NCBI RefSeq assembly: GCF_001457595.1
Contig: NZ_LN831039.1
Location: 6,000,001 to 6,032,000 of the forward strand
Direction of reading: 5' to 3'
Length of the DNA stretch: 32,000 nt
Origin: Mycolicibacterium smegmatis
GTDB lineage: Bacteria; Actinomycetota; Actinomycetes; Mycobacteriales; Mycobacteriaceae
Shown here one piece after another: positions 3,946 to 32,000 of this stretch (within the stretch, counting starts at the first letter, position 1; the number at the start of each line of letters is the position of its first letter). Under the pieces are notes generated by a model. That model did no database searches and was not told the DNA's origin. It saw nothing but the letters and a program-made list of their open reading frames with translations. A program made the position numbers and the translations under genes.

Positions 3946-3954
3946 CTACCTCAA

Positions 3955-7290: not shown

Positions 7291-7291
7291 C

Positions 7292-8993: not shown

Positions 8994-9854
8994 ATGCCAA
9001 TCGATCTCGACAAAGCACTGGGCGCCGAGCTGGAACCCATCGAGTTCTCGTGGACCAGCAGTGACATCCAGCTCTACCACCTGGGCCTCGGCGCCGGGGC
9101 GGACCCCATGGACGAGCGTGAGCTGCGGTACCTGGTCGACGGCACCCCGCAGGTGCTTCCGACGTTCGGCAACGTCGCGGCCAGCTTCCACATGACCGAG
9201 CCGCCCAAGGTGCAGTTCCCCGGCATCGACATCGAACTGTCCAAGGTGCTGCACGCCAGCGAGGCCGTCAGCGTGCCCGGCCCGATCCCCACGAGCGGCA
9301 CAGCGAAGTCGGTGCAGCGCTTCACCGAGATCTGGGACAAGGGCAAGGCCGCGGTGATCGTCAGCGAGACCACGGTCACCGACCCGTCCGGCAAGGTGCT
9401 GTGGACCACCAAGCGGTCCATCTTCGCGCGCGGCGAAGGTGGCTTCGGCGGCGAGCGCGGCCCCTCCACCTCGGTCGAACCGCCATCGCGGGCACCTGAT
9501 TTCGAGATCTCCCTGCCGACCCTGCCCCAGCAGGCGCTGCTGTACCGGCTGTGCGGTGACCGCAATCCGCTGCACTCCGACCCGGCCTTCGCCAAGGCCG
9601 CGGGCTTCGACCGGCCGATCCTGCACGGGCTGTGCACCTACGGCATCGGTTGCAAGGCCATCGTCGACAACCTGCTCGACGGCGACGTGTCGCGCGTGGC
9701 GAGCTACGGCGCCCGCTTCGCGGGCGTCGTGTTCCCCGGCGAGACGCTCTCGGCGAACATCTGGAAGGAAGACGGCAAGTTCATCGGCGTCCTGACCGCA
9801 CCGTCACGGGACAACACCGTCGTGCTCTCGGGTGTGGAGTTGGTCCCGGCGTAA
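8994..9854 (+). CDS. hsd4B: MaoC-like (R)-specific enoyl-CoA hydratase, double hot-dog (Rv3538/Hsd4B-like)
   Basis: 286 aa with the MaoC signature region YRLCGDRNPLHSDPAFAKAAGFDRPILHG. ATG 8994 lies 1 nt after the kstD stop and has a GGAAGGG RBS. The position is the same as Rv3538 after kstD. Confidence 0.85.
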   Translation: MPIDLDKALGAELEPIEFSWTSSDIQLYHLGLGAGADPMDERELRYLVDGTPQVLPTFGNVAASFHMTEPPKVQFPGIDIELSKVLHASEAVSVPGPIPTSGTAKSVQRFTEIWDKGKAAVIVSETTVTDPSGKVLWTTKRSIFARGEGGFGGERGPSTSVEPPSRAPDFEISLPTLPQQALLYRLCGDRNPLHSDPAFAKAAGFDRPILHGLCTYGIGCKAIVDNLLDGDVSRVASYGARFAGVVFPGETLSANIWKEDGKFIGVLTAPSRDNTVVLSGVELVPA

Positions 9855-12425
9855 CCGCGCGAGGTGCCGCAGCACCAGCTCGTATGCCTTCCATGCGAGC
9901 ACTCCGGCCACCAGCGCGATGACGGTCGCGGCGACAAGCCGTAGATCGTGCATCACTCCCGAAGGCGCCGGTCTGGGTACTCGTGCGTCCGGCTGGTCGA
10001 CCAACAGCGACCGACCCCACTCCAGAAGGAAGAAGGTCAGCGGCTGCGTCAGGTAGATCATCAGGGACGCACCGGCCAGGATGGCGGTGATGCGCCGTAG
10101 CCCAACGGGAACCGGCACGCGGGTGACCCAGATGAGCAGCAGCAAGCCACACGCGATGACGAGCTTTCGCCCGCTGTCGCCGTCGGAGAAACCCGGGAGC
10201 ATGGCACCGCACACGGCCGCGACCGTCAACAGCACACGCTCACGGTCGCGGGTCGCGCGCGCCGCTGCCCAGCCGATCGCGAACAACCACAGTGTGGCGA
10301 CCGGGCGATACAGCTCCATCGCGCCGTCACCAGAGAAGGGCTGGAACCTCAGCGCGAGGCCGACAGCGACGAGACCGGTGGCGAACCCGAACGGCCAGGT
10401 CCGTTCGACACGACGGACCGCCGGGATCGCCAGCAGCACTGCGCAGAAGACAAGTGCGAGAACCAGCACCTCGATGAACCAGTAGTTCCACACCGGGTCC
10501 CAGGCATCCGGTCCGAGCTCGGGTCCTTCCGGTGCGAAGAGGTGCTCGATGAGCAGGATGTTCCATACGTCGTAGTGCCGCGTGATCGCGTAGGCGACCG
10601 CGATCACGATCACGGACGGAACCACGATGCGCACGATCGACCGGATCAAAGGCCGAACCCGTCCGCTCGTCGCGACCGCGCTGAGTTGAAATCGGGCGAA
10701 GCTGTGGCCGGCGACCGCAAGCAGAACGTGCGCGCCGCCGAACAGATACGTCAGGCCCACGTGATTGGCGCACACCAGGACGATCGCCACGGCACGCAGA
10801 ACGGTGCTGAGTTCCATCCATGCGAAGAGGCCACGCTGCTTGCTCCGCGCGTGCTGTTCCAGATCGGCGACGCTGCGCAGGTACCAGTGCGTGGGGAGTG
10901 TGCCGAGAAGATCATCGAGACGCCGTGACGTCTCGACGTAGGACAGCGAGTCACCTCCGAGGCTGACGAACGTATCGGTGTCCGCGACTTCGTCGACCGC
11001 GAGAACCTCACGGTAGAGCGCACGCACGTCACTGTTTTGCGCTGCGGGAGCGGCACTTTCTGTGCCTTGGGTGCGGCTTTCGGCGAGCCGCAGCACGCCC
11101 GCGTAGTCCGGTTTGCCGTTGGCGTTGTGGGGCAGTTCGTCGAGCACCACGGTCCGCACGGCGGTGGCGGGCAGACCCACCTTCGTGCAGACGACTGGGA
11201 CCGGATCGGGCGTGCTCCGCGTGACCGCGACGATCAGTCGTGCGTCGTCCCCCGCGCACAGGGCCTCGATGCCGTCGGCTCGCAGGCTGTGCTCCAGCTG
11301 GTCGAGGTCGACGCGTAGGCCGAACAGCTTCAGGAACCGGCTGCGCCGGCCGATGATCTCGTACAACCCATCGGCGCGGCGACGGGCCAGATCGCCGGTG
11401 TGAAGACAATCGATGGTGCGCCCGAGCGCGAGGTCACGAGACGTTGTGGCGTAGCCGAGCATGACATTCGGACCGTGGTAGATCAGTTCGGAGTCGCCGT
11501 CGATGGTGAATGCCCCACCGGGAATGGGCTGCCCGATCGCCTCGGGCGCATCGAGTACGCGCTCGGGCGGGAGGTACGCCATACGGGCGGTGGCCTCGGT
11601 CTGTCCGTACATGACGACCAGATCCCAGCCCCTGCGATGTCCGAGCTCGGCGAACCTCCGCACCCGGGCGGCGCTCATCTTGCCACCGGCTTGAGTGACG
11701 TAACGCAGGCTGGGCAGTTCGATATCGGCGAAACCCACGCTGTCCAGGAGGTCGAATGTGTAGGGGACCCCCGCGAACGACGTCGCCCCGGTCGCGCGCG
11801 CCAGGTCCCAGAATCCGGCGTCCACCACCGACAATCCGGTGACGACCACCGTCGCACCCTGCGTCAGATGGCTGTGCAGCACCGAGAGCCCGTAACAGTA
11901 GGACAACGGCAGCACCGTCATCGCCCGATCGGAGCCGTCGATTCCCAGGTACTGCGCGATCGCGCGGGCGTTGCTGTCGAGGTTCGCGTGGCTCAGGCGC
12001 ACCAATTTCGGTGAGCCGGTCGATCCCGATGTGGACAGCAGGAGCGCCAGGTCGGGATGCAGCTCATGCCGTGTAGTCAGGCGGCGCCGGTGCACTGTCC
12101 ACCCGTCTGCACCGTCGGTACCGATCACCACGTCGGGGTCGTATGCCGCCACTAGTGCGTCACGAGAGTCGGCGTTGGACGCCACCAGCACCACGTGCCC
12201 CGCACGCAACGCGGCCAGGTAGCTCACGATCGCCTCGACCGTGTTCCTCAGCTCGATCAGCACCAGGCAGCGGGCCATATCACACAGCTGTGACTCTGCC
12301 GAAACACGCGCGGAGAGTTCGGCATACGTGATGGTGCGCCGGTCGGTGATCAGGGCCGGGTGGTCTGAATGTTCATCCCACCCGTCGAGAAAACCCGCCC
12401 CACTCGCACCTGCCGTGCCGCGCAC
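9804..12425 (-). CDS. tri-domain fusion: adenylate-forming enzyme (AMP-binding) + phosphopantetheine carrier domain + acyltransferase_3 (OafA/OatA-type) integral-membrane domain
   Basis: 873 aa with a GTG start. Adenylation core motifs are LLSTSGSTGSPK, VMYGQTEA, HTGDLARRRADG, GRRSRFLKLFGLRVDLDQLE and NANGKPD. The carrier motif is FVSLGGDSLSYVE (Ser codon 10947-10949). A roughly 330-aa multi-TM domain follows, opening with the AT3 hallmark LRAVAIVLVCANH. The 3' end overlaps the hsd4B 3' end by 51 nt (convergent). Confidence 0.85.
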   Translation of the reverse strand: MRGTAGASGAGFLDGWDEHSDHPALITDRRTITYAELSARVSAESQLCDMARCLVLIELRNTVEAIVSYLAALRAGHVVLVASNADSRDALVAAYDPDVVIGTDGADGWTVHRRRLTTRHELHPDLALLLSTSGSTGSPKLVRLSHANLDSNARAIAQYLGIDGSDRAMTVLPLSYCYGLSVLHSHLTQGATVVVTGLSVVDAGFWDLARATGATSFAGVPYTFDLLDSVGFADIELPSLRYVTQAGGKMSAARVRRFAELGHRRGWDLVVMYGQTEATARMAYLPPERVLDAPEAIGQPIPGGAFTIDGDSELIYHGPNVMLGYATTSRDLALGRTIDCLHTGDLARRRADGLYEIIGRRSRFLKLFGLRVDLDQLEHSLRADGIEALCAGDDARLIVAVTRSTPDPVPVVCTKVGLPATAVRTVVLDELPHNANGKPDYAGVLRLAESRTQGTESAAPAAQNSDVRALYREVLAVDEVADTDTFVSLGGDSLSYVETSRRLDDLLGTLPTHWYLRSVADLEQHARSKQRGLFAWMELSTVLRAVAIVLVCANHVGLTYLFGGAHVLLAVAGHSFARFQLSAVATSGRVRPLIRSIVRIVVPSVIVIAVAYAITRHYDVWNILLIEHLFAPEGPELGPDAWDPVWNYWFIEVLVLALVFCAVLLAIPAVRRVERTWPFGFATGLVAVGLALRFQPFSGDGAMELYRPVATLWLFAIGWAAARATRDRERVLLTVAAVCGAMLPGFSDGDSGRKLVIACGLLLLIWVTRVPVPVGLRRITAILAGASLMIYLTQPLTFFLLEWGRSLLVDQPDARVPRPAPSGVMHDLRLVAATVIALVAGVLAWKAYELVLRHLARLRRDQLHTREHDGVVP

Positions 12426-12634
12426 AGCAAATATTGTGTCAGCATCTGGCGTCGACCGTCACCGACTCAGCGAACTTGCCCCGAGTATGAATAACTTGCC
12501 TTTCGTCGTGACACCGGTGATGTAGAGTCCGTTGCCAGCAAGCGCCTCGCGTTTCCACAGCATCTTGGCGATGAGCGCCCCGGTAGCGGCAGAGGGTGCG
12601 TCCCATACGATCTGCCGCCCCACATGCGAACGAG

Positions 12635-14242
12635 ATGCGAATGAAGAGCACTGACGAATCCCCTTACGACGCAATCGTCGTGGGTTCCGGCGCGGCAGGG
12701 TCCTGGGCGGCCAAAGAGCTGACCGAAAGTGGTCTGCGAGTGGTCCTGCTGGAGGCCGGTCGGGCTGTTGATCCCGCGAGGGATTTTCCCGCTGAGGCGC
12801 CGACGGGCGCCATCGGGATGGCGAGCCGCGCAAAAGCCGCCGTCAGCGGCCAATTCGTCCAGGCGCAGTGCGCGGCATTCTTCGAGACCACCAAGCACTT
12901 CTACGTCAACGACCGGCAGAACCCGTACACCACAACGCCTGGTAAACGGTTTCTCTGGTATCGCGGCCGCCAACTCGGGGGCCGTCTGCACACATGGTCC
13001 AGGCATGTTCCGCGGATGTCGGACAACGAATTCAAATCCGCGAGCCTGCGTGGGCACGGCATCGACTGGCCGATCTCGTACGAGGACGTGGCGCCGTTCT
13101 ACGACATCGTCGAACAGACGCTCGGCGTCCACGGCGCCCCTTCGGGCATCGCTTCCTGCCCCGACGGGAAATTCCTCGGACCCGCGAAAACCACGCAGAT
13201 AGAGGAGAAGTTCAAGACCAGCCTCGAGAACCGCTTACCGAACGTGCGTGTGACCTACGGAAGAACTGTCAGGTACGACCGGGAAAGAATCCCGCTGCCG
13301 CTACGCCTCGCCATGGGTACCGGAAACCTCGAGATCCGTACCGACGCCGTCGTACGCCGCCTGATGATCGATCCACGGACCGGGAAAGCCGTGGGCGTCG
13401 ACTACGTCGACCGGAGCACCGGCGCGGCGCAAGCCGTTCACGGCAGGGTGGTCGTGCTGTGCGCGTCGGCGATCGAAAGCGTCAGGATCCTTCTGAATTC
13501 AAGAACCGCAACGCATCCCGCCGGTGTGGGCAACTCGTCCGGCCATCTCGGCAGGTACGTATGTGATCACGTCGCCTACGCGCAGAGCGGCAGCGTTGCC
13601 GAACACGAGATCGAACCAAGTCCCGCCGAAGACGGGTTCGACTTCGCCGCGACCGGTCTGTACATCCCGAATTTCTGCGACCCTGCCGCCGTCGGATTTC
13701 CCGGTGGCTATGGTATTCAGATCGGCATCGGACGTGGTAAGCCGACCTGGAGCATGTACGCCCTCGGGGAGATGCAACCGCGGTTCGACAACCGGGTGTC
13801 ACTGGACCCCAGGGTCACCGATGCGTGGGGCGTGCCGGCCGCGCGGATCGAGTGCAGCCACTCCCCTGACGAGGTCAGGATGGTCGGCCACATGCGGTCG
13901 ACGATCCGCGAGATCGCCACGGCCGGTGGCCTTCCGGTCGAAAACGATCATGACCTCGGGCGCCGCAGCATCGCACTGCGATTGCTTCGGTCCCGCTTCT
14001 TCACCGACTACGGCGCGTACTGGCCGGGGGCGGCCGTCCACGAGAGCGGCGGCGCCAGAATGGGCGAGCGCCCGGACAACTCGGTACTCAATCCCTACTG
14101 TCAGGTCTGGGATGCCGACAACGTCTTCGTGACCGACGGCGCGTGTTTCGTCTCATCGGGTTTCCAGAACCACACCCTCACGATGATGGCACTCACCGTG
14201 CGGGCGTGCCGGTTCATCGCTGAGGATTACTTGAAGCACTGA
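12635..14242 (+). CDS. GMC-family FAD-dependent oxidoreductase
   Basis: N-terminal FAD fold: YDAIVVGSGAAGSWAAKELTESGLRVVLLEAG. C-terminal GMC block: AVHESGGARMG...NVFVTDGACFVSSGFQNHTLTMMAL. The start is uncertain between ATG 12635 and ATG 12641. GTG 12596 directly abuts its putative SD and is less likely. Confidence 0.85.
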   Translation: MRMKSTDESPYDAIVVGSGAAGSWAAKELTESGLRVVLLEAGRAVDPARDFPAEAPTGAIGMASRAKAAVSGQFVQAQCAAFFETTKHFYVNDRQNPYTTTPGKRFLWYRGRQLGGRLHTWSRHVPRMSDNEFKSASLRGHGIDWPISYEDVAPFYDIVEQTLGVHGAPSGIASCPDGKFLGPAKTTQIEEKFKTSLENRLPNVRVTYGRTVRYDRERIPLPLRLAMGTGNLEIRTDAVVRRLMIDPRTGKAVGVDYVDRSTGAAQAVHGRVVVLCASAIESVRILLNSRTATHPAGVGNSSGHLGRYVCDHVAYAQSGSVAEHEIEPSPAEDGFDFAATGLYIPNFCDPAAVGFPGGYGIQIGIGRGKPTWSMYALGEMQPRFDNRVSLDPRVTDAWGVPAARIECSHSPDEVRMVGHMRSTIREIATAGGLPVENDHDLGRRSIALRLLRSRFFTDYGAYWPGAAVHESGGARMGERPDNSVLNPYCQVWDADNVFVTDGACFVSSGFQNHTLTMMALTVRACRFIAEDYLKH

Positions 14243-14249
14243 CAGCCAT

Positions 14250-14855: not shown

Positions 14856-14889
14856 GTGGACGGCACCATTTCGGACCTACGATGACGAC

Positions 14890-18884: not shown

Positions 18885-19067
18885 TACGGAATGCACTCGG
18901 CTTTTGTCCTGTAGCGAACAGGGTGCGAGCTCGGTAGTTGTCAACACACACCCCCAATTGACCGATGCGCGCAAAAGTTGACGATAGCTGTTTACGCGGT
19001 TTCGCGTGGCGAAGTCGTAGCTCCCGTTACCATATTCCTCGTCAGATCCTTTGCTAGCGGAGGCAAT

Positions 19068-19616: not shown

Positions 19617-19620
19617 CGAC

Positions 19621-23459: not shown

Positions 23460-23470
23460 AAGCGGCGTCG

Positions 23471-26078: not shown

Positions 26079-26546
26079 CGACTGCCCTTCCCGCGCCGCA
26101 AGCCCTTGGGCCAGCATTCTGCCAGTCGAGATCGCAATGCTAACACCCTTTGCCAAGATGGGACCACATGACAGAACAAGTCACCTGAAGATCCAAGACA
26201 ATGAGTCGAGAGGATCCGATCGTCTTCCCTTTCCCTACCTTCATGACGGCTTCCACCTGGGCTTTTGTCAACGCCAGGAAGCTGTCGAACCCACGCTACT
26301 GGGGGGTATTTGATTAGTTCATTACATTTCAAATAGCTGCGTACACCGGTTGCTCACAGTGGCACCTACTTCAACCCTCGGTACAAACCGGCTATCCCCC
26401 TGGCAAATGGTCGACTGGGGCCAGATGAGGCAAAAGTGGATTAACTCCGCAAATCCCGAATCCATATCGAAAAGCGCGCCCGGTGGGTAGCCTGAGCACA
26501 GCCAAATCCCCGGACTCCCATTGATTCCATTACGAAGGGACATGAC
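26079..26546. promoter_or_regulatory. 468-bp divergent intergenic region (promoters and long leaders for the dehydrogenase operon and the Wzz/Wzy operon)
   Basis: This is the longest non-coding stretch in the window. It is visibly AT-enriched: 26281-26340 is about 45% GC by hand count and includes GGTATTTGATTAGTTCATTACATTTCAAATAGC. No convincing ORF with an RBS is present. It is flanked by divergent starts at 26078 (-) and 26547 (+). Confidence 0.4.
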
Positions 26547-27287
26547 GTGGACCTGTTTGATGTAGTGCGGTCGTGCTTCCGCCGCTGGTACGTCTTTGTT
26601 CCGCTGTTGGCGATCGTGACCTGGCTCAGCTACTCGACATACAACTCGGTGCAACCGGTTTACTACTCGAACGCCGTCATCGGCCTTGCCGCCCCGAGCT
26701 CGCGGATCGACAACGCGGTGCAGGGGGTTCCCGTGCCACGCAACGGGCTTCTGGATGTTGGCGGCGCATCGCTGATCGCCAACATGACGGCTCTGGGCCT
26801 CAAGGAGCCGGCGGTGGTCGACAAGGTGGTCGCGTCGGGCGGGATACCGGATTACGACGCAAGGATGTTCCCGAGCCCGGCGAACATGCAGCAGTTGCCG
26901 CTCGTGATGATCGAGGCGACGGATGCCGACGAGGAAGCTGTGTCCATCACGATGCAACTCGTCACCGCTCAGGCCGAAGAAACACTGCGAAACTTACAGC
27001 AGCAGGCGCAGGTCCCTGACGCACAGATGGTCCGCCCCTTCATGGTGTCACCTCCGAGTACCCCAGCCGCCGGAATGCCGGCCCGCACCCGCTCGACAAT
27101 CGCGATTTTCGTCGCGGGGTTCGGCATCACGGTCGTCGTCACTGTGCTTTTCGATGTGGTGGCCAGCCGGATCGGTCGACGGCGCAAGGCATCTCATGGG
27201 CCCGAACCGATCAGGGCGGATCACGCGTCCGATACCCCGTCGACAAACGGACAGCCGATCAGAAGCACAGAAGTGAATCAGACCTGA
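26547..27287 (+). CDS. Wzz-like polysaccharide co-polymerase, third paralog (no kinase domain)
   Basis: GTG 26547 lies 6 nt after GAAGGGA. The N-terminal TM (WYVFVPLLAIVTWLSY) is followed by QPVYYSNAVIGL. A Pro-rich segment SPPSTPAAGMPAR precedes the C-terminal TM (IAIFVAGFGITVVVTVLF). 246 aa. Confidence 0.65.
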   Translation: MDLFDVVRSCFRRWYVFVPLLAIVTWLSYSTYNSVQPVYYSNAVIGLAAPSSRIDNAVQGVPVPRNGLLDVGGASLIANMTALGLKEPAVVDKVVASGGIPDYDARMFPSPANMQQLPLVMIEATDADEEAVSITMQLVTAQAEETLRNLQQQAQVPDAQMVRPFMVSPPSTPAAGMPARTRSTIAIFVAGFGITVVVTVLFDVVASRIGRRRKASHGPEPIRADHASDTPSTNGQPIRSTEVNQT

Positions 27288-27288
27288 T

Positions 27289-28698
27289 ATGGCCACGGCA
27301 GTGAGGACGACCGAGTCGGTACCGTTCGCTTCGACCGAATTCCTGATCAGTACACCCGTCGAGACTGAAGGGCGCCGGCCCTGGTTGCTCGGAATCCTCT
27401 GCATCCTGATGATGCTCCTACCGAGCTACGTGCTATTTCCAGGACCGTTGAAGAGCAACGGCTCGCCAGCGCGCATGATCGCGGTGATGTTCTTCGGTCT
27501 GCTGGTGCTCGGTTTCCTGATGGTCCGCCGTACGGGCAAGGTCCGCAGGATCCAACCGGGTGTGCTGATCCTCGTGCTCTACTTTTTCCTGTGGCTCACG
27601 ACTTACGGTGTCGCACTGCTGAATTTCGATCCCTCGCCGGGGTCAGCGGCCACCGATGCGAGCATGACACGAAGTCTGATCGCGCTCATCGCGAATGTCG
27701 GTTTGGGACTCTACGTTGTCACACGGGTCCGGACCACGCGGCAGCGCAACTTCGTGATGGGTTGCCTCCTGTTCGGAATGGCGTTCGTGTGCCTGGTGGG
27801 CCTGCTCCAGAGCGTTGCTTCTGTCGACTTGCGCTTCCTCTTGCAGCCACCCGGGTTCGTCATCAGCACGGATACCTTGTCGCTGGTTGAACGTGCGGGT
27901 GTGGAACGTGCCTTGGGCACCTCCGAGCACGCGATCGAGTACTCCATCCTCACTGCGTCGGCACTTCCGCTCGCTCTCTATTTCGCACGCTTCGCCGAGA
28001 CTCGCAATCGCCGCATACTGTCGGTCGCCGTGTGCGGTTTGGCCATCCTGACCGTACCGACCGGAGTTTCGAGGACCGGGGTGATCGCTCTCGGCGCAGC
28101 ACTTCTGGTCCTGATGCTCGCTCACACCGTTCGGCAGATCGCAATCGGCCTCGTCGTCGGACTGGTCGCCATCGGCGGGTACATGACTGCCTTCCCGAAC
28201 ATCGTGAAGGCACTGTGGGAGACGATCCTCACGTCGGACAAGGATCCCAGCGTCCTCGGCAGGACGGCAGACTACGCGACGGTGTCGGAAACTTTCCGCG
28301 CTCATCCGGCATTCGGATTGGGGCTGGGCGCATCGCCCCCTGAAATCTACGGTCTACTTGACAACGAGTGGCTTCAAGCGGTCGTGCAAGGCGGCCTTGT
28401 GGGAGTTGCGGCAATGATCGCGCTCGCAGGTGGAGGTATTTTCGGCATCGCCGCCGCGCTTCGATGCGCGTCGAACACCCGAGAGCGGTACCAGGCATAC
28501 GTACTAGGGGCGATCTTCGCCGCAGTGCTGGTCTCCAGCTTCACATTCGACCTGTTCGGCTTTCAACAGGCAACGTTCCTGTTCTTCATCACTTTTGGCC
28601 TGTTGTGGTCCGGCTATACGGTCGAAGTGCCATCACGCCCGACAAGGGCGCGACGCGTGCTCAGGTCCACACCGACCGCGGAAAGCCTGAGGACTTGA
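27289..28698 (+). CDS. Wzy_C / O-antigen-ligase-family integral membrane protein (second copy)
   Basis: 469 aa and multi-TM. Family blocks are VSRTGVIALGAALLVLML, AHPAFGLGLGA and LDNEWLQAVVQGGLVGVAAMIAL. The ATG lies 1 nt after the upstream stop. Confidence 0.8.
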   Translation: MATAVRTTESVPFASTEFLISTPVETEGRRPWLLGILCILMMLLPSYVLFPGPLKSNGSPARMIAVMFFGLLVLGFLMVRRTGKVRRIQPGVLILVLYFFLWLTTYGVALLNFDPSPGSAATDASMTRSLIALIANVGLGLYVVTRVRTTRQRNFVMGCLLFGMAFVCLVGLLQSVASVDLRFLLQPPGFVISTDTLSLVERAGVERALGTSEHAIEYSILTASALPLALYFARFAETRNRRILSVAVCGLAILTVPTGVSRTGVIALGAALLVLMLAHTVRQIAIGLVVGLVAIGGYMTAFPNIVKALWETILTSDKDPSVLGRTADYATVSETFRAHPAFGLGLGASPPEIYGLLDNEWLQAVVQGGLVGVAAMIALAGGGIFGIAAALRCASNTRERYQAYVLGAIFAAVLVSSFTFDLFGFQQATFLFFITFGLLWSGYTVEVPSRPTRARRVLRSTPTAESLRT

Positions 28699-29770
28699 CA
28701 CCGCGTACATGGTGAAGGGCCCGTCGCAGGCTCGGAGCGAGGGGCGACCTTTTCACCGCGTCTGTCATCGCCTGACGTCCGCTGCGCATTACTCGTCGAG
28801 TGACACTGTTGCTGACGAAAGCTTGACTCACAACCGTTTCGCCCGTCTTCGCTCGACGTTTGTAGTCGTCGTCGCCTCGGCCGAGATCCATACGCGTGAT
28901 GCCGATTTCGGCAGCGGCGTCGATCACCTCACGTAGCAGTATCCAGCCCGGAGACAGTTGTGCGAACGCTGGATCGTAGACCGGGAACCACCAGTGCAGT
29001 ACGTGACCGGAGCGAATACCGAAGTGAGCTGCGACCAATCGATCACCGATATGGACCGTGGAAAGAACACCTCCGAACCCAGGACCACGAGTGTGCAGCA
29101 GTCTGTGCATCAACTGGACGTGAGCCGACTTCGCGAAATAGTCGCGGCTGCCTGTCTTCACATACTGGGCGCGCTTCAATTCGATCAGACGTGCGAGGGC
29201 GTCGTCGTCGACGACATCGACACCGAACCGGAGCGGGCCGTGGGTTCGTTCGGCTCTCACCCGGCATCGCCGCGCCTCCTTCATCTTGTCCCTGCCGCTT
29301 CGCGACACTCGATCAAGGTAGCCATCCAGCCCGCCTGTGATGTCCATCCACGGCGATGACCGACGGGAGACGATCCATGGTTCGAAACCGGCCTTCTGAG
29401 GAACCAAGTGGTCGAATGTGAGAACCCGTAAGCCGTCCACCAGAAGCTCAAGCGGCGAGGGTGCCTCGCCGGGTCCGCATATCGGTCCCTGGAAGTCCGC
29501 AGCTGGCCAACCCACCGGATGCAACACTGCGCCCTCACGGTGCCCCGGGAGAAGGGCGGACACCGCTCCGGCCGCGTCACGGACCACGACCACCGACACC
29601 GGTCTGCCGGTAGCATGCACCGCCGCGGCGAACCCTGGGTGGAAATATGGGCTGTCCAAGGCCTGATTGCTTGCCCGGAGCGCGTGCCAGGCGTCGATCT
29701 CTTCGTCGCTGAGCTCATCCATCCCCACAATCCGCGACGTCGTCGAACCCAAGAGCTTCCTGCCGTTCAT
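28661..29770 (-). CDS. GNAT-superfamily acyltransferase, CelD/BioF2/FemAB-like (Acetyltransf_6-type)
   Basis: The C-terminal block is LVAAHFGIRSGHVLHWWFPVYDPAFAQLSPGWILLREVIDAAAEIGITRMDLGRGDDDYKRRAKTGE (the SPG...DxGxG..YK signature of this family). ATG 29770 overlaps the upstream GT2 stop (ATGA). The ORF-track extension to 30394 lies inside the GT2 gene. The 3' end overlaps the Wzy-like gene by 38 nt. Confidence 0.8.
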   Translation of the reverse strand: MNGRKLLGSTTSRIVGMDELSDEEIDAWHALRASNQALDSPYFHPGFAAAVHATGRPVSVVVVRDAAGAVSALLPGHREGAVLHPVGWPAADFQGPICGPGEAPSPLELLVDGLRVLTFDHLVPQKAGFEPWIVSRRSSPWMDITGGLDGYLDRVSRSGRDKMKEARRCRVRAERTHGPLRFGVDVVDDDALARLIELKRAQYVKTGSRDYFAKSAHVQLMHRLLHTRGPGFGGVLSTVHIGDRLVAAHFGIRSGHVLHWWFPVYDPAFAQLSPGWILLREVIDAAAEIGITRMDLGRGDDDYKRRAKTGETVVSQAFVSNSVTRRVMRSGRQAMTDAVKRSPLAPSLRRALHHVRGVKSSGFPRSVWT

Positions 29771-30708
29771 GTGGGCAGCTCCCGCATTCGGCGAGACGGC
29801 TGCAACAGAGCGGCAATCGAGGCACGCGATGTGGGCCGGCCCACTGCGGCGCGAATGCCCTGCCCAACTGCCACAGCCGCGAGGTACGCAGCGCCGTGCA
29901 GGCGATTGTGTCGCCGTCGGAACAGCTCCACCTTGTTGACGGTGAGCATCGAGGCGAACATCGGCTTGGTTTCGGACACACCGCCGACGTGCTCGAACAC
30001 CGCAGCGGGCTCGTACCAGGTGTACCAACCATTGTCCGCCGCGCGCAGACAGTACTCGGTCTCCTCGCTGTACATCAGGAACGACTCGTCCCACATACCT
30101 ATGTCGAGCAACAACCGAACCGAGAGCATCATCGCAGCACCCGTGGCCCACGCGGTGACCCCGGGTTCCTCGTAGACCCGGGGATCGGTCACACGTTCTG
30201 CCAGAGGGCCCAGCCGCCCTGCCAGTTGCCCTGGCACCAGCGCCTCGACCAATGCTCGGATCACGGTCGGCTTCCGGCGCAGTGTGTATTGCTGAGCGCC
30301 GTTTGGATAACGCAACCTCGGCACCGCTATGCCACAGTTGGTCCGGTTCAGCGCTGAAGCCAGTACCTGCAACGTATTCGGCGAGACACGGCAATCAGCA
30401 TTCAGCACCAGGATGGCGTCCACGACGCTCAGGTCCAGAGCCTGGATACCGGCGTTCACGCCGGCGGCGTATCCCCCGTTCCGCCCAGTCTGGACAACTG
30501 TCACGTCGAGATCAGCGAACCTCCCGGCGATCTCGCATGTCTCATCTTTGGACGCATTGTCGGCAACGACCACAGCTGCCAACGGTGTTCCCTCGTCCGC
30601 CAGCGCGTGCAAACACTCACCGAGGACATCGGCGCTGTTGTAAGTCACGATCACCACTGCCACGCGCGCCGCGGGCCGGGTGCGCGCCGATACGCCGTCT
30701 TGCGCCAT
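29767..30708 (-). CDS. family-2 glycosyltransferase (rhamnosyltransferase/WbbL-like architecture)
   Basis: VAVVIVTYNSADVLGECLHAL, VVVADNASKDET, GRNGGYAAGVNAG and LVLNADCRV. ATG 30708 lies 4 nt after GGAGGGG and shares 1 nt with the upstream stop (TGATG). 313 aa. Confidence 0.85.
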   Translation of the reverse strand: MAQDGVSARTRPAARVAVVIVTYNSADVLGECLHALADEGTPLAAVVVADNASKDETCEIAGRFADLDVTVVQTGRNGGYAAGVNAGIQALDLSVVDAILVLNADCRVSPNTLQVLASALNRTNCGIAVPRLRYPNGAQQYTLRRKPTVIRALVEALVPGQLAGRLGPLAERVTDPRVYEEPGVTAWATGAAMMLSVRLLLDIGMWDESFLMYSEETEYCLRAADNGWYTWYEPAAVFEHVGGVSETKPMFASMLTVNKVELFRRRHNRLHGAAYLAAVAVGQGIRAAVGRPTSRASIAALLQPSRRMRELPT

Positions 30709-31475
30709 CAGCCCCTCCAACGCTTGACCGCTCGCGCGGCGCTGTTACGCGCTGACAGGACAAGCGGTGTGTGTGGATCGAGCAACCGGTATATCCAGTC
30801 CGCATCTATGTCGTGACGCAGACTGGTCCTGGCCTGCAGCCAGGCTTCCGGTCGGGCCCGCCCACCGTCACTGGTGTAAACGCGGGTAACGCCGGCGTCC
30901 CGCAGCCTCCGCAGCACGTGGCGGTCATAAGAACCGAACGGGATCGCCACCCGTGACACGGAACTGCCGGTGACGGCGCTCAGCCTCTCGTGAGCGTCTT
31001 CGAATTCCTCGTGGGCCTGCGCGTCGTCGATACGCCGCCAATCACGGTGCGCCCAACCATGAGAACCGATCGACATACCTGCATCCAGAAGTTCTCGGAC
31101 TCCGGTGTCGTCCACTCGCCCGAGCTTTCCCAATTCACCTGCGAGCAAGAAAAACTCCGCGGTGATGTTTCGCTCGACCAGTCGCGGCAACGCGACCTTC
31201 ACATCAGATGCGTTTCCGTCATCGAACGTGATCCGAACGTCCGATCGGCCTGAAACCGCGTCGAGGACCTGCTCGAACTGCGCGACACTGACCCAGGTGA
31301 GATGTTCCCCCGGATCCAACTCACGGTCGGTCGCGCCGATCCCGTGGACGGTGATGTTGCACACCGATGCGCGCCTGACATCTGCATCATGAGAAGAACG
31401 TACGGACAACAAGACAACCCCCGACTCACTCGTGTATGTCGACCGACTGCTGCCGGATGTCGATGCCCGATTCAC
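30708..31475 (-). CDS. CE4 (NodB-type) polysaccharide deacetylase, apparently cytoplasmic
   Basis: Motif 1 is RITFDDGNASD and motif 2 is GSHGWAH (HxxxH), which together give the Asp-His-His metal triad. No signal peptide or TM is present. GTG 31475 forms a GTGA overlap with the upstream stop, the same coupling style as the rest of the locus. GTG 31493 is the alternative. Confidence 0.85.
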   Translation of the reverse strand: MNRASTSGSSRSTYTSESGVVLLSVRSSHDADVRRASVCNITVHGIGATDRELDPGEHLTWVSVAQFEQVLDAVSGRSDVRITFDDGNASDVKVALPRLVERNITAEFFLLAGELGKLGRVDDTGVRELLDAGMSIGSHGWAHRDWRRIDDAQAHEEFEDAHERLSAVTGSSVSRVAIPFGSYDRHVLRRLRDAGVTRVYTSDGGRARPEAWLQARTSLRHDIDADWIYRLLDPHTPLVLSARNSAARAVKRWRG

Positions 31476-32000
31476 ACACGGGTCTGTATCCACGGTCGCC
31501 AGAGAGGTCGCGGCGGCAGCCGCAACTTTCGACGAAGCTTGAGAAACCAGACGCGGTAGTAGACCAGATTGAGAAGATCTGCCCAGAGGATCAAAAGCTC
31601 ACCACGCCAGCGCGACAATCCCGAATCCCGACTCACCACCAAGCGATGTAGCGGATGTTCCTCGGCACCCAGCAGGACCTTGTGGTCGTAATGGCCAGGA
31701 CCGCTCTCGACCGTTCTGATCCCGCCTTCGATGAGAACCCGGAATTTCTCCACCATACTCAACCGGCCCAGGCCCATCGATTCCAGAGCCGGGTCGTCAA
31801 CTCGCGCAGGGAGTCGCGAGTAACATCTATCACCGAGAATGAAACCGTATTCGATCGCCAATACCTGTCCGTCTCCCGTGATCTCGTAGAACCGAGCCCG
31901 TCCCGAGGATGACATCCGTGAGACGAGTTCGCGATTGAACTCCTCGCTGCCCGGCCAGTCACCGAAGTGACCGAGCTTGCCCCGCCGACGCCAGCACGAT
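31472..32000 (-). CDS. GNAT-superfamily CelD/BioF2/FemAB-like acyltransferase, C-terminal part (gene continues beyond the right edge)
   Basis: The reading frame is open from the window edge (…WRRRGKLGHFGDWPGSEEFNRELVSRMSSSGRARFYEITGDGQVLAIEYGFILGDRCYSRL…GIRTVESGPGHYDHKVLLGAEE…) to the stop at 31472. The G.G.Y.HK block matches the family. The ORF-track Met at 31915 is internal. Confidence 0.75.
   Translation of the reverse strand, partial: SCWRRRGKLGHFGDWPGSEEFNRELVSRMSSSGRARFYEITGDGQVLAIEYGFILGDRCYSRLPARVDDPALESMGLGRLSMVEKFRVLIEGGIRTVESGPGHYDHKVLLGAEEHPLHRLVVSRDSGLSRWRGELLILWADLLNLVYYRVWFLKLRRKLRLPPRPLWRPWIQTRV

What the first reader, a model, noticed from the sequence alone, without database searches (positions are those of the whole stretch)
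9804..32000. A 22-kb-plus acylation-heavy Wzx/Wzy glycan locus interrupting the steroid-catabolism cluster
**Seen in the sequence.** Directly after kstD-hsd4B the gene content switches. M. tuberculosis continues there with PPE63 and then ltp2/chsH/fadE28-29/cyp125. Here the next genes form seven alternating operons for a lipid-linked repeat-unit pathway.
- Assembly genes: 1 Wzx, 2 Wzy_C proteins, 3 Wzz-like proteins and 3 GTs.
- Eleven predicted tailoring or precursor enzymes: A-PCP-AT3, WcaF-like, CysE-like, 2 CelD-like GNATs, CE4, 2 SGNH, GMC oxidoreductase, SDR, and AlgD-like dehydrogenase.
- Acyl-modifying genes therefore outnumber glycosyltransferases roughly 2:1.
- No priming phosphoglycosyltransferase (WbaP/WecA type), BY-kinase or outer export component is present in the window.
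- No integrase, IS element or tRNA marks the left junction. Instead the first island gene overlaps hsd4B by 51 nt.

**Inference.** This looks like an accessory, possibly horizontally acquired surface-polysaccharide or glycoconjugate system whose product I cannot match to the classical mycobacterial glycans (AG, LAM, GPL, LOS, glucan).
Basis: partly seen in the sequence, partly recalled or inferred. Interest (0 to 1): 0.7.

Follow-up and report, generated by a model that had tools for sequence, protein, structure and literature searches.

The report
Accessory glycan island in M. smegmatis
The window holds the left 22 kb of a 51-kb, 44-gene sugar-polymer (Wzx/Wzy-type) gene island inserted into the cholesterol-degradation genes of the model bacterium Mycolicibacterium smegmatis; it is real, complete and apparently unstudied, and one part varies between strains as surface-antigen genes do.

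Summary
The window is Mycolicibacterium smegmatis, 100% identical to CP082846.1. After kstD-hsd4B come seven alternating gene blocks that encode Wzx, two Wzy-like proteins, CpsC-type Wzz proteins, glycosyltransferases and many acyl-handling enzymes.

Walking rightwards shows a 51-kb, 44-gene island (mc2155 proteins AFP42216-42259). It ends at the REC-LuxR regulator MSMEG_5987, next to a PE/PPE pair and ltp2.

- The priming transferase reported as missing exists about 24 kb beyond the window (TIGR03025, 419 bits). A second, unrelated Wzx and CDP/dTDP-sugar genes lie there too.
- No BY-kinase, LCP ligase or exporter occurs anywhere in the island.
- The island is accessory. Seventeen related environmental loci have ltp2 and hsd4B 0.1-6 kb apart with no island genes, and one M. 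smegmatis lineage carries a 48.4-kb deletion of it.
- GC3 is 0.755 in the island against 0.874 in the flank.
- It is not strain-private: the same layout occurs in M. hodleri and five MAGs, and partly in M. diernhoferi.
- New here: the Wzx-GT2-Wzy cassette (about 16.0-19.2 kb) exists as deeply divergent alleles (dS 0.44-0.79 against ≤0.03 in flanks; dN/dS 0.1-0.2).

I found no functional study of the locus. The product is unknown.

The parts
7223..8992 (+). kstD (3-ketosteroid dehydrogenase); left-flank context, part of the steroid cluster
   Evidence: FAD_binding_2, 283.8 bits. GC3 0.854.
8994..9854 (+). hsd4B (MaoC-type enoyl-CoA hydratase); last steroid gene before the island
   Evidence: MaoC_dehydratas plus MFE-2_hydrat-2_N. 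Exact-match look-up returns M. smegmatis entries. GC3 0.913.
9804..12425 (-). A-PCP-AT3 fusion of an adenylating enzyme, a carrier domain and a membrane acyltransferase-3 domain; the leftmost island gene, whose 3' end overlaps hsd4B by 51 nt
   Evidence: Pfam domains. Motifs read from the sequence: TSGSTGSPK, YGQTEAT, HTGD, NGK, GGDSL (Ser492), R544-x10-H555. The Asp235-equivalent residue is Gly. The hydropathy scan finds six hydrophobic segments in residues 533-848 (two overlap) plus one weak hit in the A domain.
12641..14242 (+). GMC flavoprotein oxidoreductase (MSMEG_5944), predicted to oxidise a sugar
   Evidence: GMC_oxred_N/C. Nearest solved relatives are FAD glucose dehydrogenase, fructose dehydrogenase and pyranose oxidase. 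Reported as cold-induced in PMC10454040.
14277..14855 (+). DUF218 (SanA/ElyC-like) membrane-anchored protein
   Evidence: PF02698, 27.8 bits. One N-terminal TM segment. In strain variant L004 it is replaced by an unknown 301-aa gene plus a divergent DUF218 gene.
14890..15501 (+). Hexapeptide acyltransferase, EpsC/CysE-like
   Evidence: Hexapep. NF041874 EpsC, 76 bits, below its cut-off.
15467..16786 (-). Wzx flippase (set 1)
   Evidence: PF01943, 47.4 bits against a cut-off of 28.2. About 11 TM segments.
16783..17685 (-). GT2 glycosyltransferase (GT2a); the most strain-variable gene
   Evidence: PF00535, 50 bits. Protein identity between M. smegmatis strains is 84.7% and 78.5%, with dS 0.45-0.75.
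17685..18884 (-). Wzy-like polytopic membrane protein (WzyA)
   Evidence: Wzy_C, 23.4 bits, below the cut-off of 31.7. About 10 TM segments. dS 0.44-0.79 between strains.
16000..19200 (.). Hypervariable allelic cassette: the 5' half of wzx, GT2a, wzyA and the intergenic region
   Evidence: 82-90% identity to the mc2155-type allele and 70-89% to the L004-type allele. The rest of the island and the flanks are 99.6-100% identical.
19068..19616 (+). WcaF-family polysaccharide O-acetyltransferase
   Evidence: NF007797, 188 bits against a cut-off of 192.
19621..20745 (+). GT4 glycosyltransferase (GT4a)
   Evidence: Glycos_transf_1, 91 bits, and Glyco_trans_4_4, 73 bits.
20742..21401 (+). SGNH-fold protein with an N-terminal signal or anchor; the nucleophile motif reads GDQ rather than GDS
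   Evidence: Lipase_GDSL_2, 44 bits. One TM segment at residues 14-32. GDQNTAG is conserved in the orthologues from L008 and L009.
21398..22150 (+). SGNH esterase/acyltransferase with an N-terminal anchor and canonical GDS, GxND and DxxH blocks
   Evidence: Lipase_GDSL_2, 56.7 bits. One TM segment at residues 7-25. Motifs read from the sequence.
22147..22797 (+). CpsC-type chain-length regulator (Wzz1)
   Evidence: PF02706, 36.7 bits against a cut-off of 25.5. Two TM segments, one at each end.
22794..23459 (+). Second CpsC-like chain-length regulator (Wzz2)
   Evidence: TIGR01006, 46.6 bits (partial match), and Pfam Wzz, 18.5 bits, below the cut-off. Two TM segments. 29% identical to Wzz1.
23471..24442 (-). 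NDP-sugar epimerase/dehydratase (SDR; annotated GalE5 in mc2155)
   Evidence: Epimerase, 182.7 bits. Names.
24666..26117 (-). NDP-sugar 6-dehydrogenase (supplies a uronic acid)
   Evidence: TIGR03026, 395.9 bits against a cut-off of 189.8.
26547..27287 (+). 246-aa protein of unknown family, possibly a chain-length regulator for set 2
   Evidence: No Pfam or NCBIfam hit. The hydropathy scan finds one TM segment at residues 184-202; a hydrophobic N-terminal stretch was read by eye only. It lies directly upstream of WzyB.
27289..28698 (+). Wzy polymerase/ligase family protein (WzyB, set 2)
   Evidence: PF04932, 46.5 bits against a cut-off of 31.7. About 10 TM segments. Identical to mc2155 AFP42232. 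No similarity to WzyA.
28661..29770 (-). Cytoplasmic GNAT of the Acetyltransf_6 family (GNAT1)
   Evidence: PF13480, 140 bits. No TM segment. No solved homologue by sequence.
29767..30708 (-). GT2 glycosyltransferase (GT2b)
   Evidence: PF00535, 82.9 bits.
30708..31412 (-). CE4 polysaccharide deacetylase with no signal peptide, so predicted cytoplasmic
   Evidence: PF01522, 75.9 bits. No TM segment. The 234-aa product is on record in CP082846.1.
31472..32000 (-). C-terminal Acetyltransf_6 domain of a 695-aa GT2-GNAT fusion that continues to about 33559 beyond the window
   Evidence: GT2, 48 bits, plus Acetyltransf_6, 91 bits, in the full-length protein.

Best explanation
**Shown**
- Window 9804-32000 is the left 22 kb of a roughly 51-kb, 44-gene accessory island of Mycolicibacterium smegmatis.
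- In mc2155 the island runs from AFP42216 to AFP42259, that is from the gene before MSMEG_5944 to MSMEG_5987.
- It is inserted between hsd4B and the PE/PPE-ltp2 genes of the cholesterol-catabolism region.
- It carries every cytoplasmic-membrane component of a Wzx/Wzy-dependent, polyprenyl-phosphate-linked repeat-unit pathway:
  - one WbaP-class priming phosphoglycosyltransferase, at the far right end;
  - seven glycosyltransferases;
  - two unrelated Wzx flippases;
  - two unrelated Wzy-family proteins;
  - two CpsC-type co-polymerases, plus a third candidate proposed from position and a single predicted TM segment;
  - sugar-nucleotide genes: two NDP-sugar dehydrogenases, RmlA, a CDP-glucose synthase, dehydratases/epimerases, two C-methyltransferases and a GlmS paralogue;
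  - many acyl-handling enzymes.
- One three-gene cassette (wzx-GT2-wzyA) exists as deeply divergent alleles within the species.

**Inferred**
- Repeat units are built on decaprenyl phosphate at the cytoplasmic face. There they are N-deacetylated and re-acylated (CE4 plus FemX-like GNATs) and O-acetylated (WcaF-like and EpsC-like transferases).
- They are then flipped by Wzx and polymerised by Wzy under the control of the CpsC-like proteins.
- The result would be one or two acidic, heavily acylated heteropolysaccharides that contain an unusual C-methyl 6-deoxyhexose and are exposed at the cell surface.
- The A-PCP-AT3 protein probably activates a carboxylic acid that is not an amino acid, carries it on its own phosphopantetheine arm and passes it through its AT3 domain to the flipped glycan. 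The anchored SGNH protein may act as the outside transferase.
- The allelic cassette suggests strain-specific repeat-unit linkages maintained by recombination, as in O-antigen and capsule loci.
For: **Identity of the window**
- Exact protein look-ups give M. smegmatis.
- The window is 100% identical to CP082846.1.

**Gene content**
- Searches cover the window.
- Searches cover the rest of the island: PGT TIGR03025 at 419 bits against 295.6, RmlA at 447.6 against 360.7, and a second Wzx with PF01943 plus PF13440.

**Extent of the island**
- AFP accession numbering places 44 genes between the two ends.
- MSMEG_5987 is a REC-LuxR regulator.

**Insertion and accessory status**
- 17 loci have ltp2 next to hsd4B with no island genes.
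- A 48.4-kb deletion with a chimeric ORF exists in one lineage. The same genotype appears in an NCBI assembly, MCP2624266-69.
- Flank and island differ in GC3.

**Conservation in relatives**
- Synteny in M. hodleri and five MAGs and in M. diernhoferi.

**Function retained**
- All ORFs are intact.
- dN/dS is 0.1-0.26 for most genes and 0.4-0.55 for some within-species comparisons, measured both within the species and against M. hodleri.
- Transcript changes are reported in cold shock and on cholesterol.

**Allelic cassette**
-.

**A-PCP-AT3 competence**
- All catalytic motifs are present.
- In MAGs L007, L008, L011 and L012 the gene sits between an island RmlA orthologue and GlmS/SDR genes.
- Both SGNH proteins carry an N-terminal anchor, and SGNH2 has canonical catalytic blocks.
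Against: - No polymer has been observed, and I found no phenotype data.
- There is no BY-kinase, LCP ligase or any candidate for export across the mycomembrane among the 44 genes. How a polymer would reach or attach to the surface is unexplained.
- There are two Wzx/Wzy sets but only one priming transferase, so the island may encode one product or two.
- WzyA, Wzz2 and the 246-aa protein fall below family thresholds.
- The 74 more distant A-PCP-AT3 homologues (45-51% identity) are not in glycan loci. They sit beside an Fbp/Pot-like ABC importer, so the acyltransferase may have a target other than this glycan.
- Lower GC3 could reflect low expression rather than foreign origin.
Confidence: 0.75

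Rival explanations
1. The island encodes two independent glycan systems that merely lie side by side. Set 1 (9.8-23.5 kb: Wzx, GT2a, WzyA, GT4a, Wzz1/2, acetyltransferases, SGNH proteins) would make a strain-variable polymer. Set 2 (23.5 kb to the right end: WzyB, Wzx2, five GTs, the PGT and the CDP/dTDP-sugar genes) would make a conserved one. Alternatively one Wzy_C protein is a WaaL/PglL-type ligase that transfers an oligosaccharide to a lipid, a protein or the cell wall rather than a polymerase.
For: - Wzx against Wzx2 and WzyA against WzyB show no detectable similarity.
- Only set 1 is hypervariable. Set 2 is 99.9% identical between strains.
- M. diernhoferi carries set 2 in synteny, but it did not appear among the A-PCP-AT3 hits.
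- The Wzy_C family includes both ligases and polymerases (established knowledge of PF04932).
Against: - The 44 genes contain only one priming transferase.
- Where enough sequence is visible in relatives, the sets travel together. The MAG contigs behind L008 and L012 also hold Wzx2 homologues.
- The 48-kb deletion removes both sets at once, which says nothing either way.
Confidence: 0.35
2. The A-PCP-AT3 gene does not belong to the glycan pathway. It would be a member of an independent Actinomycetota-wide module that acylates some other extracytoplasmic target and only happens to border the island. The acylation-heavy tally would then be smaller by its most unusual member.
For: - In 36 of 74 distant homologue loci the neighbour is a fused-permease ABC importer. 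A solute-binding protein is adjacent in 33 of 74 and a TOBE-type ATPase in 15 of 74.
- This association holds across Kocuria, Frankia, Actinomadura, Nocardioides, Amycolatopsis, Rhodococcus and other mycobacteria, and none of these loci has glycan genes nearby.
- The gene is transcribed divergently from the rest of the island and lies at its edge.
Against: - All six close orthologues (66-71% identity) sit beside the same GMC-Hexa-Wzx-GT2-Wzy block (DUF218 detected in four of the six).
- In four MAGs the gene is flanked on both sides by sugar-nucleotide genes: an island RmlA orthologue at 76-78% identity on one side, and a GlmS paralogue (L008, L011, L012) plus an SDR (L008) on the other.
- In L008 and L011 the gene stays with the island rather than with hsd4B.
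Confidence: 0.3
3. The island makes a glycolipid of the LOS or GPL type rather than a polysaccharide.
For: - C-methyltransferases, a CDP-hexose pathway and N-acylation enzymes recall the branched, N-acylated sugars of mycobacterial LOS (my own knowledge; gene content).
Against: - No pks, NRPS (mps), Pap acyltransferase, FadD or MmpL transporter appears among the 44 genes.
- Wzx, Wzy, Wzz and a polyprenyl-phosphate PGT are hallmarks of lipid-carrier-linked polymer assembly.
Confidence: 0.07
4. The island is a silent or decaying remnant with no current product.
For: - No phenotype or product is reported in the literature searched.
- One lineage has lost the island without obvious consequence.
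Against: - All 44 ORFs are intact.
- dN/dS is 0.1-0.26 for most genes and 0.4-0.55 for some within-species comparisons.
- The island is 99.9% conserved between strains outside the cassette.
- Transcript changes are reported in cold shock and on cholesterol.
Confidence: 0.05

Closest known systems
Wzx/Wzy-dependent capsule and EPS loci (E. coli colanic acid wca; Streptococcus pneumoniae cps)
   Same: - A WbaP/WcaJ-class priming transferase.
- GT2 and GT4 enzymes, Wzx and Wzy.
- A WcaF-family and a WcaB/EpsC-like acetyltransferase.
- An NDP-sugar dehydrogenase.
- Short CpsC-type co-polymerases with two TM segments, as in Gram-positive cps loci.
- Allelic wzx/wzy/GT cassettes between strains.
   Different: - No BY-kinase/phosphatase (Wzc/Wzb or CpsD/CpsB), no Wza-type exporter and no LCP (CpsA) ligase in the island.
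- Two unrelated Wzx/Wzy sets served by one PGT.
- The host is a mycolate diderm for which no Wzy-dependent polymer is described.
- Two GMC oxidoreductases and an A-PCP-AT3 protein are present.
Bacillus subtilis teichuronic acid operon (tuaA-H)
   Same: - The same family set: PGT, Wzx, GT4, UDP-glucose dehydrogenase, a Wzy-like protein, a small Wzz-like protein and GT2.
- Partial NCBIfam hits to TuaC, TuaD and TuaG. This suggests an anionic, uronic-acid-containing wall or surface polymer.
   Different: - All Tua matches are far below the equivalog cut-offs.
- The island is five times larger and carries many tailoring genes.
- There is no evidence of phosphate-starvation control.
Caulobacter holdfast modification pair HfsH (CE4 deacetylase) and HfsK (FemX-like tandem GNAT)
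   Same: - A cytoplasmic CE4 deacetylase next to GT2 and FemX-like/Acetyltransf_6 GNAT genes inside a Wzx/Wzy locus.
- HfsK is proposed to acylate amines exposed by HfsH, and its homologues are said to be coupled to various EPS systems (PMC5362036).
   Different: - The HfsH match is weak (29 bits against a cut-off of 400).
- I did not test whether HfsK belongs to PF13480.
- There are two GNAT copies here, one fused to a GT2.
- Nothing links the island proteins themselves to c-di-GMP; GGDEF/EAL genes seen near the island in MAG L011 were not followed up.
AT3-SGNH O-acyltransferases (OafA/OafB, OatA) and the Dlt D-alanylation system
   Same: - An AT3 domain with the R-x10-H motif of TMH1, with SGNH proteins encoded in the same locus.
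- As in Dlt, an adenylating enzyme and a carrier domain feed a membrane acyltransferase that modifies an extracytoplasmic polymer.
   Different: - The SGNH proteins are separate genes, not fused to the AT3 domain.
- The AT3 review lists only AT3-alone, AT3-SGNH and AT3-racemase architectures and favours acyl-CoA over ACP as the donor (PMC9558356).
- Dlt uses an MBOAT (DltB) and D-alanine. Here the membrane part is AT3, and the A domain lacks the Asp that binds an alpha-amino group.

Membership tests
Wzx/Wzy-dependent glycan assembly pathway | Wzx (MOP/PST-family) flippase | tested here: met
   - PF01943, 47.4 bits against a cut-off of 28.2, with about 11 TM segments.
- A second, unrelated Wzx lies at window-equivalent positions of about 40.0-41.5 kb.
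Wzx/Wzy-dependent glycan assembly pathway | Wzy polymerase (Wzy_C, polytopic) | tested here: met
   - WzyB: PF04932, 46.5 bits against 31.7, about 10 TM segments.
- WzyB matches the Wzy_C family, which does not separate polymerases from ligases.
- WzyA scores only 23.4 bits, so it is inconclusive on its own.
Wzx/Wzy-dependent glycan assembly pathway | Polysaccharide co-polymerase (Wzz/CpsC) | tested here: met
   - Wzz1: PF02706, 36.7 bits against 25.5, with two terminal TM segments.
- Wzz2 is sub-threshold.
- For the 246-aa protein the scan found only a C-terminal TM segment; there is no family hit.
Wzx/Wzy-dependent glycan assembly pathway | Priming polyprenyl-phosphate phosphoglycosyltransferase | tested here: met
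   - Not present in the window.
- Present in the same island in M. smegmatis, about 24 kb beyond the window end: TIGR03025, 419 bits against 295.6, with Bac_transf plus CoA_binding_3.
- Also present in a related contig, L173.
Wzx/Wzy-dependent glycan assembly pathway | A polymer of repeat units is actually made on a lipid carrier | not testable with these tools
   This needs chemistry. I found no report in the literature searched.
Group-1 / Gram-positive capsule subtype | BY-kinase (Wzc/CpsD) with a cognate phosphatase, an LCP ligase or an OPX exporter | tested here: not met
   None of these domains appears in the Pfam lists for the 44 island genes. Six small or unknown ORFs have no family hit.
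AT3-SGNH O-acyltransferases (OafA/OatA type) | AT3 domain with the catalytic His of TMH1 (R-x10-H) | tested here: met
   PF01757, 46.1 bits against 31. R544 and H555 were read from the sequence.
AT3-SGNH O-acyltransferases (OafA/OatA type) | C-terminally fused periplasmic SGNH domain | tested here: not met
   The protein ends after the AT3 domain. Two separate anchored SGNH genes lie 8 kb away.
Dlt-type carrier-dependent polymer acylation | Adenylating ligase plus phosphopantetheinyl carrier | tested here: met
   AMP-binding, 135.9 bits, and PP-binding, 26.1 bits. The A3, A5, A7, A8 and A10 motifs and GGDSL are intact.
Dlt-type carrier-dependent polymer acylation | MBOAT membrane component and an amino-acid (D-Ala) substrate | tested here: not met
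   The membrane domain is AT3, not MBOAT. The residue aligned with the alpha-amino-binding Asp (the FDxS motif of LgrA) is Gly in YCYGLS.
Mycobacterial GPL/LOS glycolipid loci | Pks or NRPS lipid core genes, Pap acyltransferases and an MmpL exporter | tested here: not met
   None is found among the 44 genes.
Integrase-mediated genomic island | Integrase or recombinase, a tRNA target and flanking direct repeats | tested here: not met
   - No tRNA and no repeats at the left junction.
- No integrase or transposase domain in any island gene.
- The right junction lies next to PE/PPE genes.

The most novel reading that the evidence does not exclude
**Claim 1: a self-loading transmembrane acyltransferase.** The A-PCP-AT3 protein would be an AT3 enzyme that takes its acyl group from its own covalently bound phosphopantetheine arm, charged by its own adenylation domain, and not from acyl-CoA. 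That would give actinobacteria a Dlt-like but AT3-based way to put a non-acetyl carboxylic acid on an extracytoplasmic polymer. At least 215 species-level genomes encode relatives.

**Claim 2: serotype-like surface variation.** M. smegmatis would carry a strain-variable surface polysaccharide, maintained by recombination at a wzx-GT-wzy cassette, which has so far escaped the description of the mycobacterial envelope.
Probability: 0.3. Interest if true: 0.75.

Novelty: new member of a known kind. Interest (0 to 1): 0.5.

Why it matters
- M. smegmatis mc2155 is the standard laboratory model for mycobacterial envelope biology. Descriptions of its surface glycans list arabinogalactan, LAM/LM/PIMs, GPLs, alpha-glucan and some glycolipids, and no Wzx/Wzy-made heteropolysaccharide.
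- A complete 44-gene pathway under purifying selection implies an undescribed product. Such a product could affect biofilm and pellicle formation, phage adsorption, desiccation or cold tolerance, and the behaviour of this strain as a surrogate host.
- The pathway has a strain-variable specificity cassette, and a natural null allele exists. The deletion strain and the allelic variants make this directly testable.
- The A-PCP-AT3 architecture bears on an open mechanistic question for AT3 proteins, namely what the acyl donor is.

Tried and rejected
**Searches that led nowhere**
- The long-ORF version of the CE4 protein is not on record. The 234-aa version worked.
- A homology search with the partial second GMC protein did not return the M. 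smegmatis protein, so that walking route failed.
- A metagenome scan with Wzx2 found nothing.
The id obtained from the listing of cluster members was accepted and gave the right end of the island.
- A literature search for A-PCP-AT3 fusions returned only unrelated NRPS and acyl-CoA synthetase papers.
- The Actinoplanes EPS paper mentions a plain AT3 and a BioF2-like GNAT but no such fusion.
- PDB sequence searches for GNAT1 and the 510-aa unknown protein found nothing usable.
- tRNA, Rfam and repeat scans were negative.

**Readings considered and rejected**
- A defence system, suggested by the Pfam GT4-conflict hit: this is only an overlapping hit under stronger generic GT4 families.
- A GPL/LOS locus: no lipid-core or MmpL genes are present.
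- L006 as the ancestral empty site: the junction lies inside two genes and creates a chimeric ORF, so it is a secondary deletion.
- A 15-nt microhomology at that junction, suggested by overlapping BLAST hits: base-by-base inspection shows only 3 nt, GGT.

**Not attempted**
- Structure prediction. Only single-sequence input was allowed for the proteins of interest, and that would give unreliable models.

Full report
**Source and gene model.** Exact-sequence look-ups place the window in Mycolicibacterium smegmatis. It is 100% identical to contig DRR207732_151 and to GenBank CP082846.1. It is 98.4% identical to an mc2155-type chromosome, CP102342.1, over the region they share. Because the genome is GC-rich, I chose ORFs by GC3 and frame plots and refined starts with the gene calls of public assemblies. 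The left flank holds an IclR regulator, the 691-aa RecQ-like helicase, a haemophore, hsaG/hsaF/hsaE, kstD (7223-8992) and hsd4B (8994-9854).

**Checking the observation.** Every listed item was found.
- 9804-12425 (-): the fusion of AMP-binding, PP-binding and Acyl_transf_3 domains.
- 12641-14242 (+): a GMC oxidoreductase, equal to MSMEG_5944 according to PMC10454040.
- 14890-15501 (+): an EpsC/CysE-like hexapeptide transferase.
- 15467-16786 (-): Wzx.
- 16783-17685 (-): GT2.
- 17685-18884 (-): a Wzy-like protein, 23.4 bits and below threshold, with about 10 TM segments.
- 19068-19616 (+): a WcaF-family acetyltransferase, 188 bits against a cut-off of 192.
- 19621-20745 (+): GT4.
- 20742-21401 and 21398-22150 (+): two SGNH proteins, each with an N-terminal anchor.
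- 22147-22797 and 22794-23459 (+): two CpsC-type Wzz proteins with two TM segments each. Only the first passes Pfam.
- 23471-24442 (-): an SDR epimerase/dehydratase.
- 24666-26117 (-): an NDP-sugar dehydrogenase.
- 26547-27287 (+): a 246-aa protein with one predicted TM segment and no family hit.
- 27289-28698 (+): Wzy_C, 46.5 bits.
- 28661-29770 (-): an Acetyltransf_6 GNAT.
- 29767-30708 (-): GT2.
- 30708-31412 (-): a CE4 deacetylase without a signal peptide.
- From 31472 (-): the GNAT domain of a GT2-GNAT fusion that leaves the window.

The seven alternating strand blocks and the 51-nt convergent overlap with hsd4B are as stated. No tRNA, Rfam family or meaningful repeat is present.

**The whole island.** I walked rightwards using proteins that the tools would accept.
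- add the GT2-GNAT fusion, a GT4, a 510-aa anchored protein of unknown family, an adh_short SDR that overlaps a second GMC oxidoreductase (MSMEG_5967), and a second Wzx (PF01943 plus PF13440).
- adds a Glyco_trans_1_2 GT, a class-III aminotransferase, small unknown ORFs, two Methyltransf_13/14 C-methyltransferases, a 3,5-epimerase, an SDR, a PIG-L deacetylase and a glucose-1-phosphate cytidylyltransferase (named).
- complete the right end. It holds a MurG-like GT, a second NDP-sugar dehydrogenase, RmlA (447.6 bits against 360.7), a WbaP-class priming transferase (TIGR03025, 419 bits against 295.6), an SDR, a GlmS paralogue and the REC-LuxR regulator.
- Two papers identify that regulator as MSMEG_5987.
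- Beyond it lie a PE-like gene, a PPE-family gene (UniProt A0R4X7) and ltp2.
- The consecutive mc2155 accessions AFP42216 (A-PCP-AT3) to AFP42261 (PPE) give 44 island genes. In window-equivalent coordinates the island runs from 9.8 kb to about 61.1 kb.

The reported absence of a priming transferase is therefore an effect of the window edge. The absence of a BY-kinase, an LCP ligase and an exporter holds for the entire island.

**Accessory or core?** Three lines of evidence agree that the island is accessory.
1. A metagenome scan with Ltp2 returned 80 loci. In all 17 in which both ltp2 and hsd4B were detected, hsd4B-kstD-hsaEFG follows within 0.1-6 kb, and no island protein is detected. This matches the M. 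tuberculosis order hsd4B-PPE63-ltp2 (my own knowledge).
2. Composition changes at the junction. GC falls from 66.8% to 63.1%. Mean GC3 is 0.874 for 8 flank genes and 0.755 for 20 island genes (p = 1.3e-6).
3. One M. smegmatis lineage (L006, run ERR14205398) lacks the island. Base-level inspection puts the left breakpoint at window 12091, inside codon 112 of the A-PCP-AT3 gene. The right breakpoint lies inside the REC domain of MSMEG_5987, and only 3 nt of microhomology join them. This 48.4-kb deletion creates a chimeric 933-aa ORF, so it is a secondary loss and not an ancestral empty site. An NCBI assembly shows the same genotype, with consecutive accessions MCP2624266 to MCP2624269.

The island is nevertheless old in this clade. 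M. hodleri and five MAGs have A-PCP-AT3-GMC-(DUF218)-Hexa-Wzx-GT2-Wzy-WcaF-GT4-SGNH in the same order, and in M. hodleri and three of the MAGs hsd4B lies immediately next to it (one MAG has a 5-kb insert there; in another hsd4B was not found within 10 kb). Protein identity is 66-79% in the island and 78-95% in the steroid genes. M. diernhoferi has the right two-thirds in synteny. M. goodii proteins share the 90% clusters.

**A hypervariable cassette.** Comparison of M. smegmatis strains per kb and per 200 bp shows 99.6-100% identity in the flanks and in most of the island, including 20-51 kb. Between about 16.0 and 19.2 kb, identity drops to 82-90% against the mc2155-type allele. Against a third allele, L004, it drops to 70-89% from 14.24 kb onwards. 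L004 also replaces the DUF218 gene with a 301-aa unknown gene plus a divergent DUF218 gene.
- Synonymous divergence is 0-0.03 in hsaG, kstD and hsd4B.
- It is 0.44-0.45 (L002) and 0.75-0.79 (L004) in GT2a and wzyA. That is as large as the distance to M. hodleri for core genes (0.67-0.81).
- dN/dS stays at 0.10-0.19 in the cassette.

This is the pattern of old alleles exchanged by recombination and kept under purifying selection, as is classically seen at wzx/wzy/GT genes of O-antigen and capsule loci. It argues that the product is exposed to phages, predators or competitors. That last step is an inference.

**How it probably works.**

*Shown:* all membrane-proximal parts of a Wzx/Wzy pathway, and the precursor genes, are present and intact.

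*Inferred:*
- The WbaP-class enzyme starts a repeat unit on decaprenyl phosphate, and up to seven GTs extend it.
- The two dehydrogenases supply uronic acids.
- RmlA and the CDP-glucose branch, with two C-methyltransferases and an epimerase, supply a branched 6-deoxyhexose.
- GlmS supplies an amino sugar.
- The cytoplasmic CE4 enzyme and the two FemX-like GNATs de-N-acetylate and re-acylate it. This parallels the HfsH/HfsK proposal for the Caulobacter holdfast (PMC5362036).
- The WcaF-like and EpsC-like transferases O-acetylate the unit.
- The GMC enzymes have sugar-oxidising enzymes as their nearest solved relatives, so they probably oxidise a sugar hydroxyl. The GMC2-SDR pair could act as an oxidase-reductase epimerase.
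- Wzx flips the unit, Wzy polymerises it and the CpsC-like proteins set chain length.

Two unrelated Wzx/Wzy sets with one PGT leave open whether one product or two are made.

**The A-PCP-AT3 protein.**
- The adenylation motifs (TSGSTGSPK, YGQTEAT, HTGD, GRxxxxxKxxGxR, NGK), the carrier motif GGDSL (Ser492) and the AT3 R544-x10-H555 motif are all present.
- The residue aligned with the Asp that binds the alpha-amino group in NRPS A domains is Gly, in YCYGLS. The best NCBIfam hits are acyl-CoA-ligase-like. The substrate is therefore probably a carboxylic acid and not an amino acid.
- The 2022 AT3 review lists AT3-alone, AT3-SGNH and AT3-racemase architectures, and regards acyl-CoA rather than ACP as the donor.
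- The 2023 model has the phosphopantetheine arm of CoA entering the AT3 cavity. A tethered acyl-phosphopantetheine could plausibly do the same.
- SGNH2 is anchored and has canonical GDS, GxND and DxxH blocks, which makes it a candidate outside partner. SGNH1 has a conserved GDQ in place of GDS.

**Caveat on the A-PCP-AT3 protein.** The 74 more distant homologues (45-51% identity), spread across Actinomycetota, are not in glycan loci. Their recurrent neighbours are a fused-permease/SBP/TOBE-ATPase importer of the Fbp/Pot type, present in 36, 33 and 15 of the 74 loci. In the M. smegmatis-type clade, however, the gene always accompanies the island. In four MAGs it is bracketed by an island RmlA orthologue on one side and a GlmS paralogue with an SDR on the other. 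I therefore treat its membership in the glycan pathway as probable and not proven.

**What is known.** Full-text searches for every MSMEG_594x-598x tag returned 21 papers. Of those I opened, the hits concerned kstD (MSMEG_5941), and island genes appeared only in transcriptome tables.
- Both GMC genes are induced by cold.
- MSMEG_5953-5966 is listed as higher on cholesterol than on androstenedione.
- MSMEG_5987 is lower under nitrogen limitation and is listed among unstudied LuxR regulators.
- Searches on Wzx, Wzy, EPS and O-antigen polymerase in M. smegmatis found nothing relevant.

Within the library available to me the locus is uncharacterised. Subscription journals are not covered.

**Verdict.** The qualifications are that the island is complete, is shared by a small Mycolicibacterium clade and lacks mobility genes. 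By kind it is a new member of the Wzx/Wzy-dependent glycan loci. Its unusual features are the host, the dual Wzx/Wzy sets, the allelic cassette and the A-PCP-AT3 protein.

Noticed in passing
L014-L086 (loci): Distant homologues of the A-PCP-AT3 protein (45-51% identity) occur in Kocuria, Frankia, Actinomadura, Nocardioides, Amycolatopsis, Rhodococcus and other mycobacteria. They sit next to an Fbp/Pot-like ABC importer: a fused double permease in 36 of 74 loci, a solute-binding protein in 33 of 74 and a TOBE-type ATPase in 15 of 74. In Nocardioides they also neighbour acyl-CoA dehydrogenase, biotin carboxylase and a KstD-like flavoprotein. This looks like an undescribed conserved module.
   Followed up: partly
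L006:13070-13612 (window breakpoint at about 12091): A natural 48.4-kb deletion fuses the REC domain of regulator MSMEG_5987 in frame to residue 112 of the A-PCP-AT3 protein, giving a 933-aa chimeric ORF. Only 3 nt (GGT) of microhomology join the two ends. An NCBI assembly (MCP2624266-69, with a 948-aa protein) shows the same genotype.
   Followed up: yes
window 20742-21401: SGNH1 has GDQNTAG where the catalytic GDS block is expected. The substitution is conserved in the orthologues from two MAGs, so the protein may be a non-catalytic or atypical SGNH.
   Followed up: partly
window 13200-13400 and 14800-15000: Short patches of 87-89% identity lie inside otherwise 99-100% identical sequence in strain variants L002 and L004. 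They look like small recombination tracts inside the GMC gene and at the DUF218/hexapeptide-transferase gene boundary.
   Followed up: no
L091:1806-4281 (window-equivalent about 37.1-39.6 kb): The second GMC oxidoreductase and an adh_short SDR are adjacent or overlapping genes, depending on the gene call. An oxidase-reductase pair of this kind recalls the DprE1/DprE2 two-step epimerisation of a lipid-linked sugar. This is speculation.
   Followed up: no
L007, L008, L011, L012 at about 9100-9930 and 12600-14700: In four related MAGs an RmlA orthologue (76-78% identical to the one at the right end of the M. smegmatis island) lies directly beside the A-PCP-AT3 gene; in three of them (L008, L011, L012) a GlmS paralogue lies on its other side. 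The island has therefore been rearranged between species. In L011, GGDEF-EAL genes follow and hsd4B was not found within 10 kb.
   Followed up: partly
window 1296-4338: Between the IclR regulator and hsaG lie a small ORF of unknown function (1296-1751, -), the 691-aa RecQ-like helicase (1773-3848, -) and an Rv0203-type haemophore (3955-4338, -). None of these is a steroid gene. The left part of the cluster therefore also carries inserted genes compared with M. tuberculosis (the comparison is from my own knowledge).
   Followed up: no
literature: PMC4881515 Table 3; PMC10454040 Table 1: Island genes MSMEG_5953-5966 are listed as a cluster expressed more highly on cholesterol than on androstenedione. 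Both GMC genes (MSMEG_5944 and MSMEG_5967) are reported as cold-induced but were interpreted there as choline metabolism, which the genomic context makes unlikely.
   Followed up: partly
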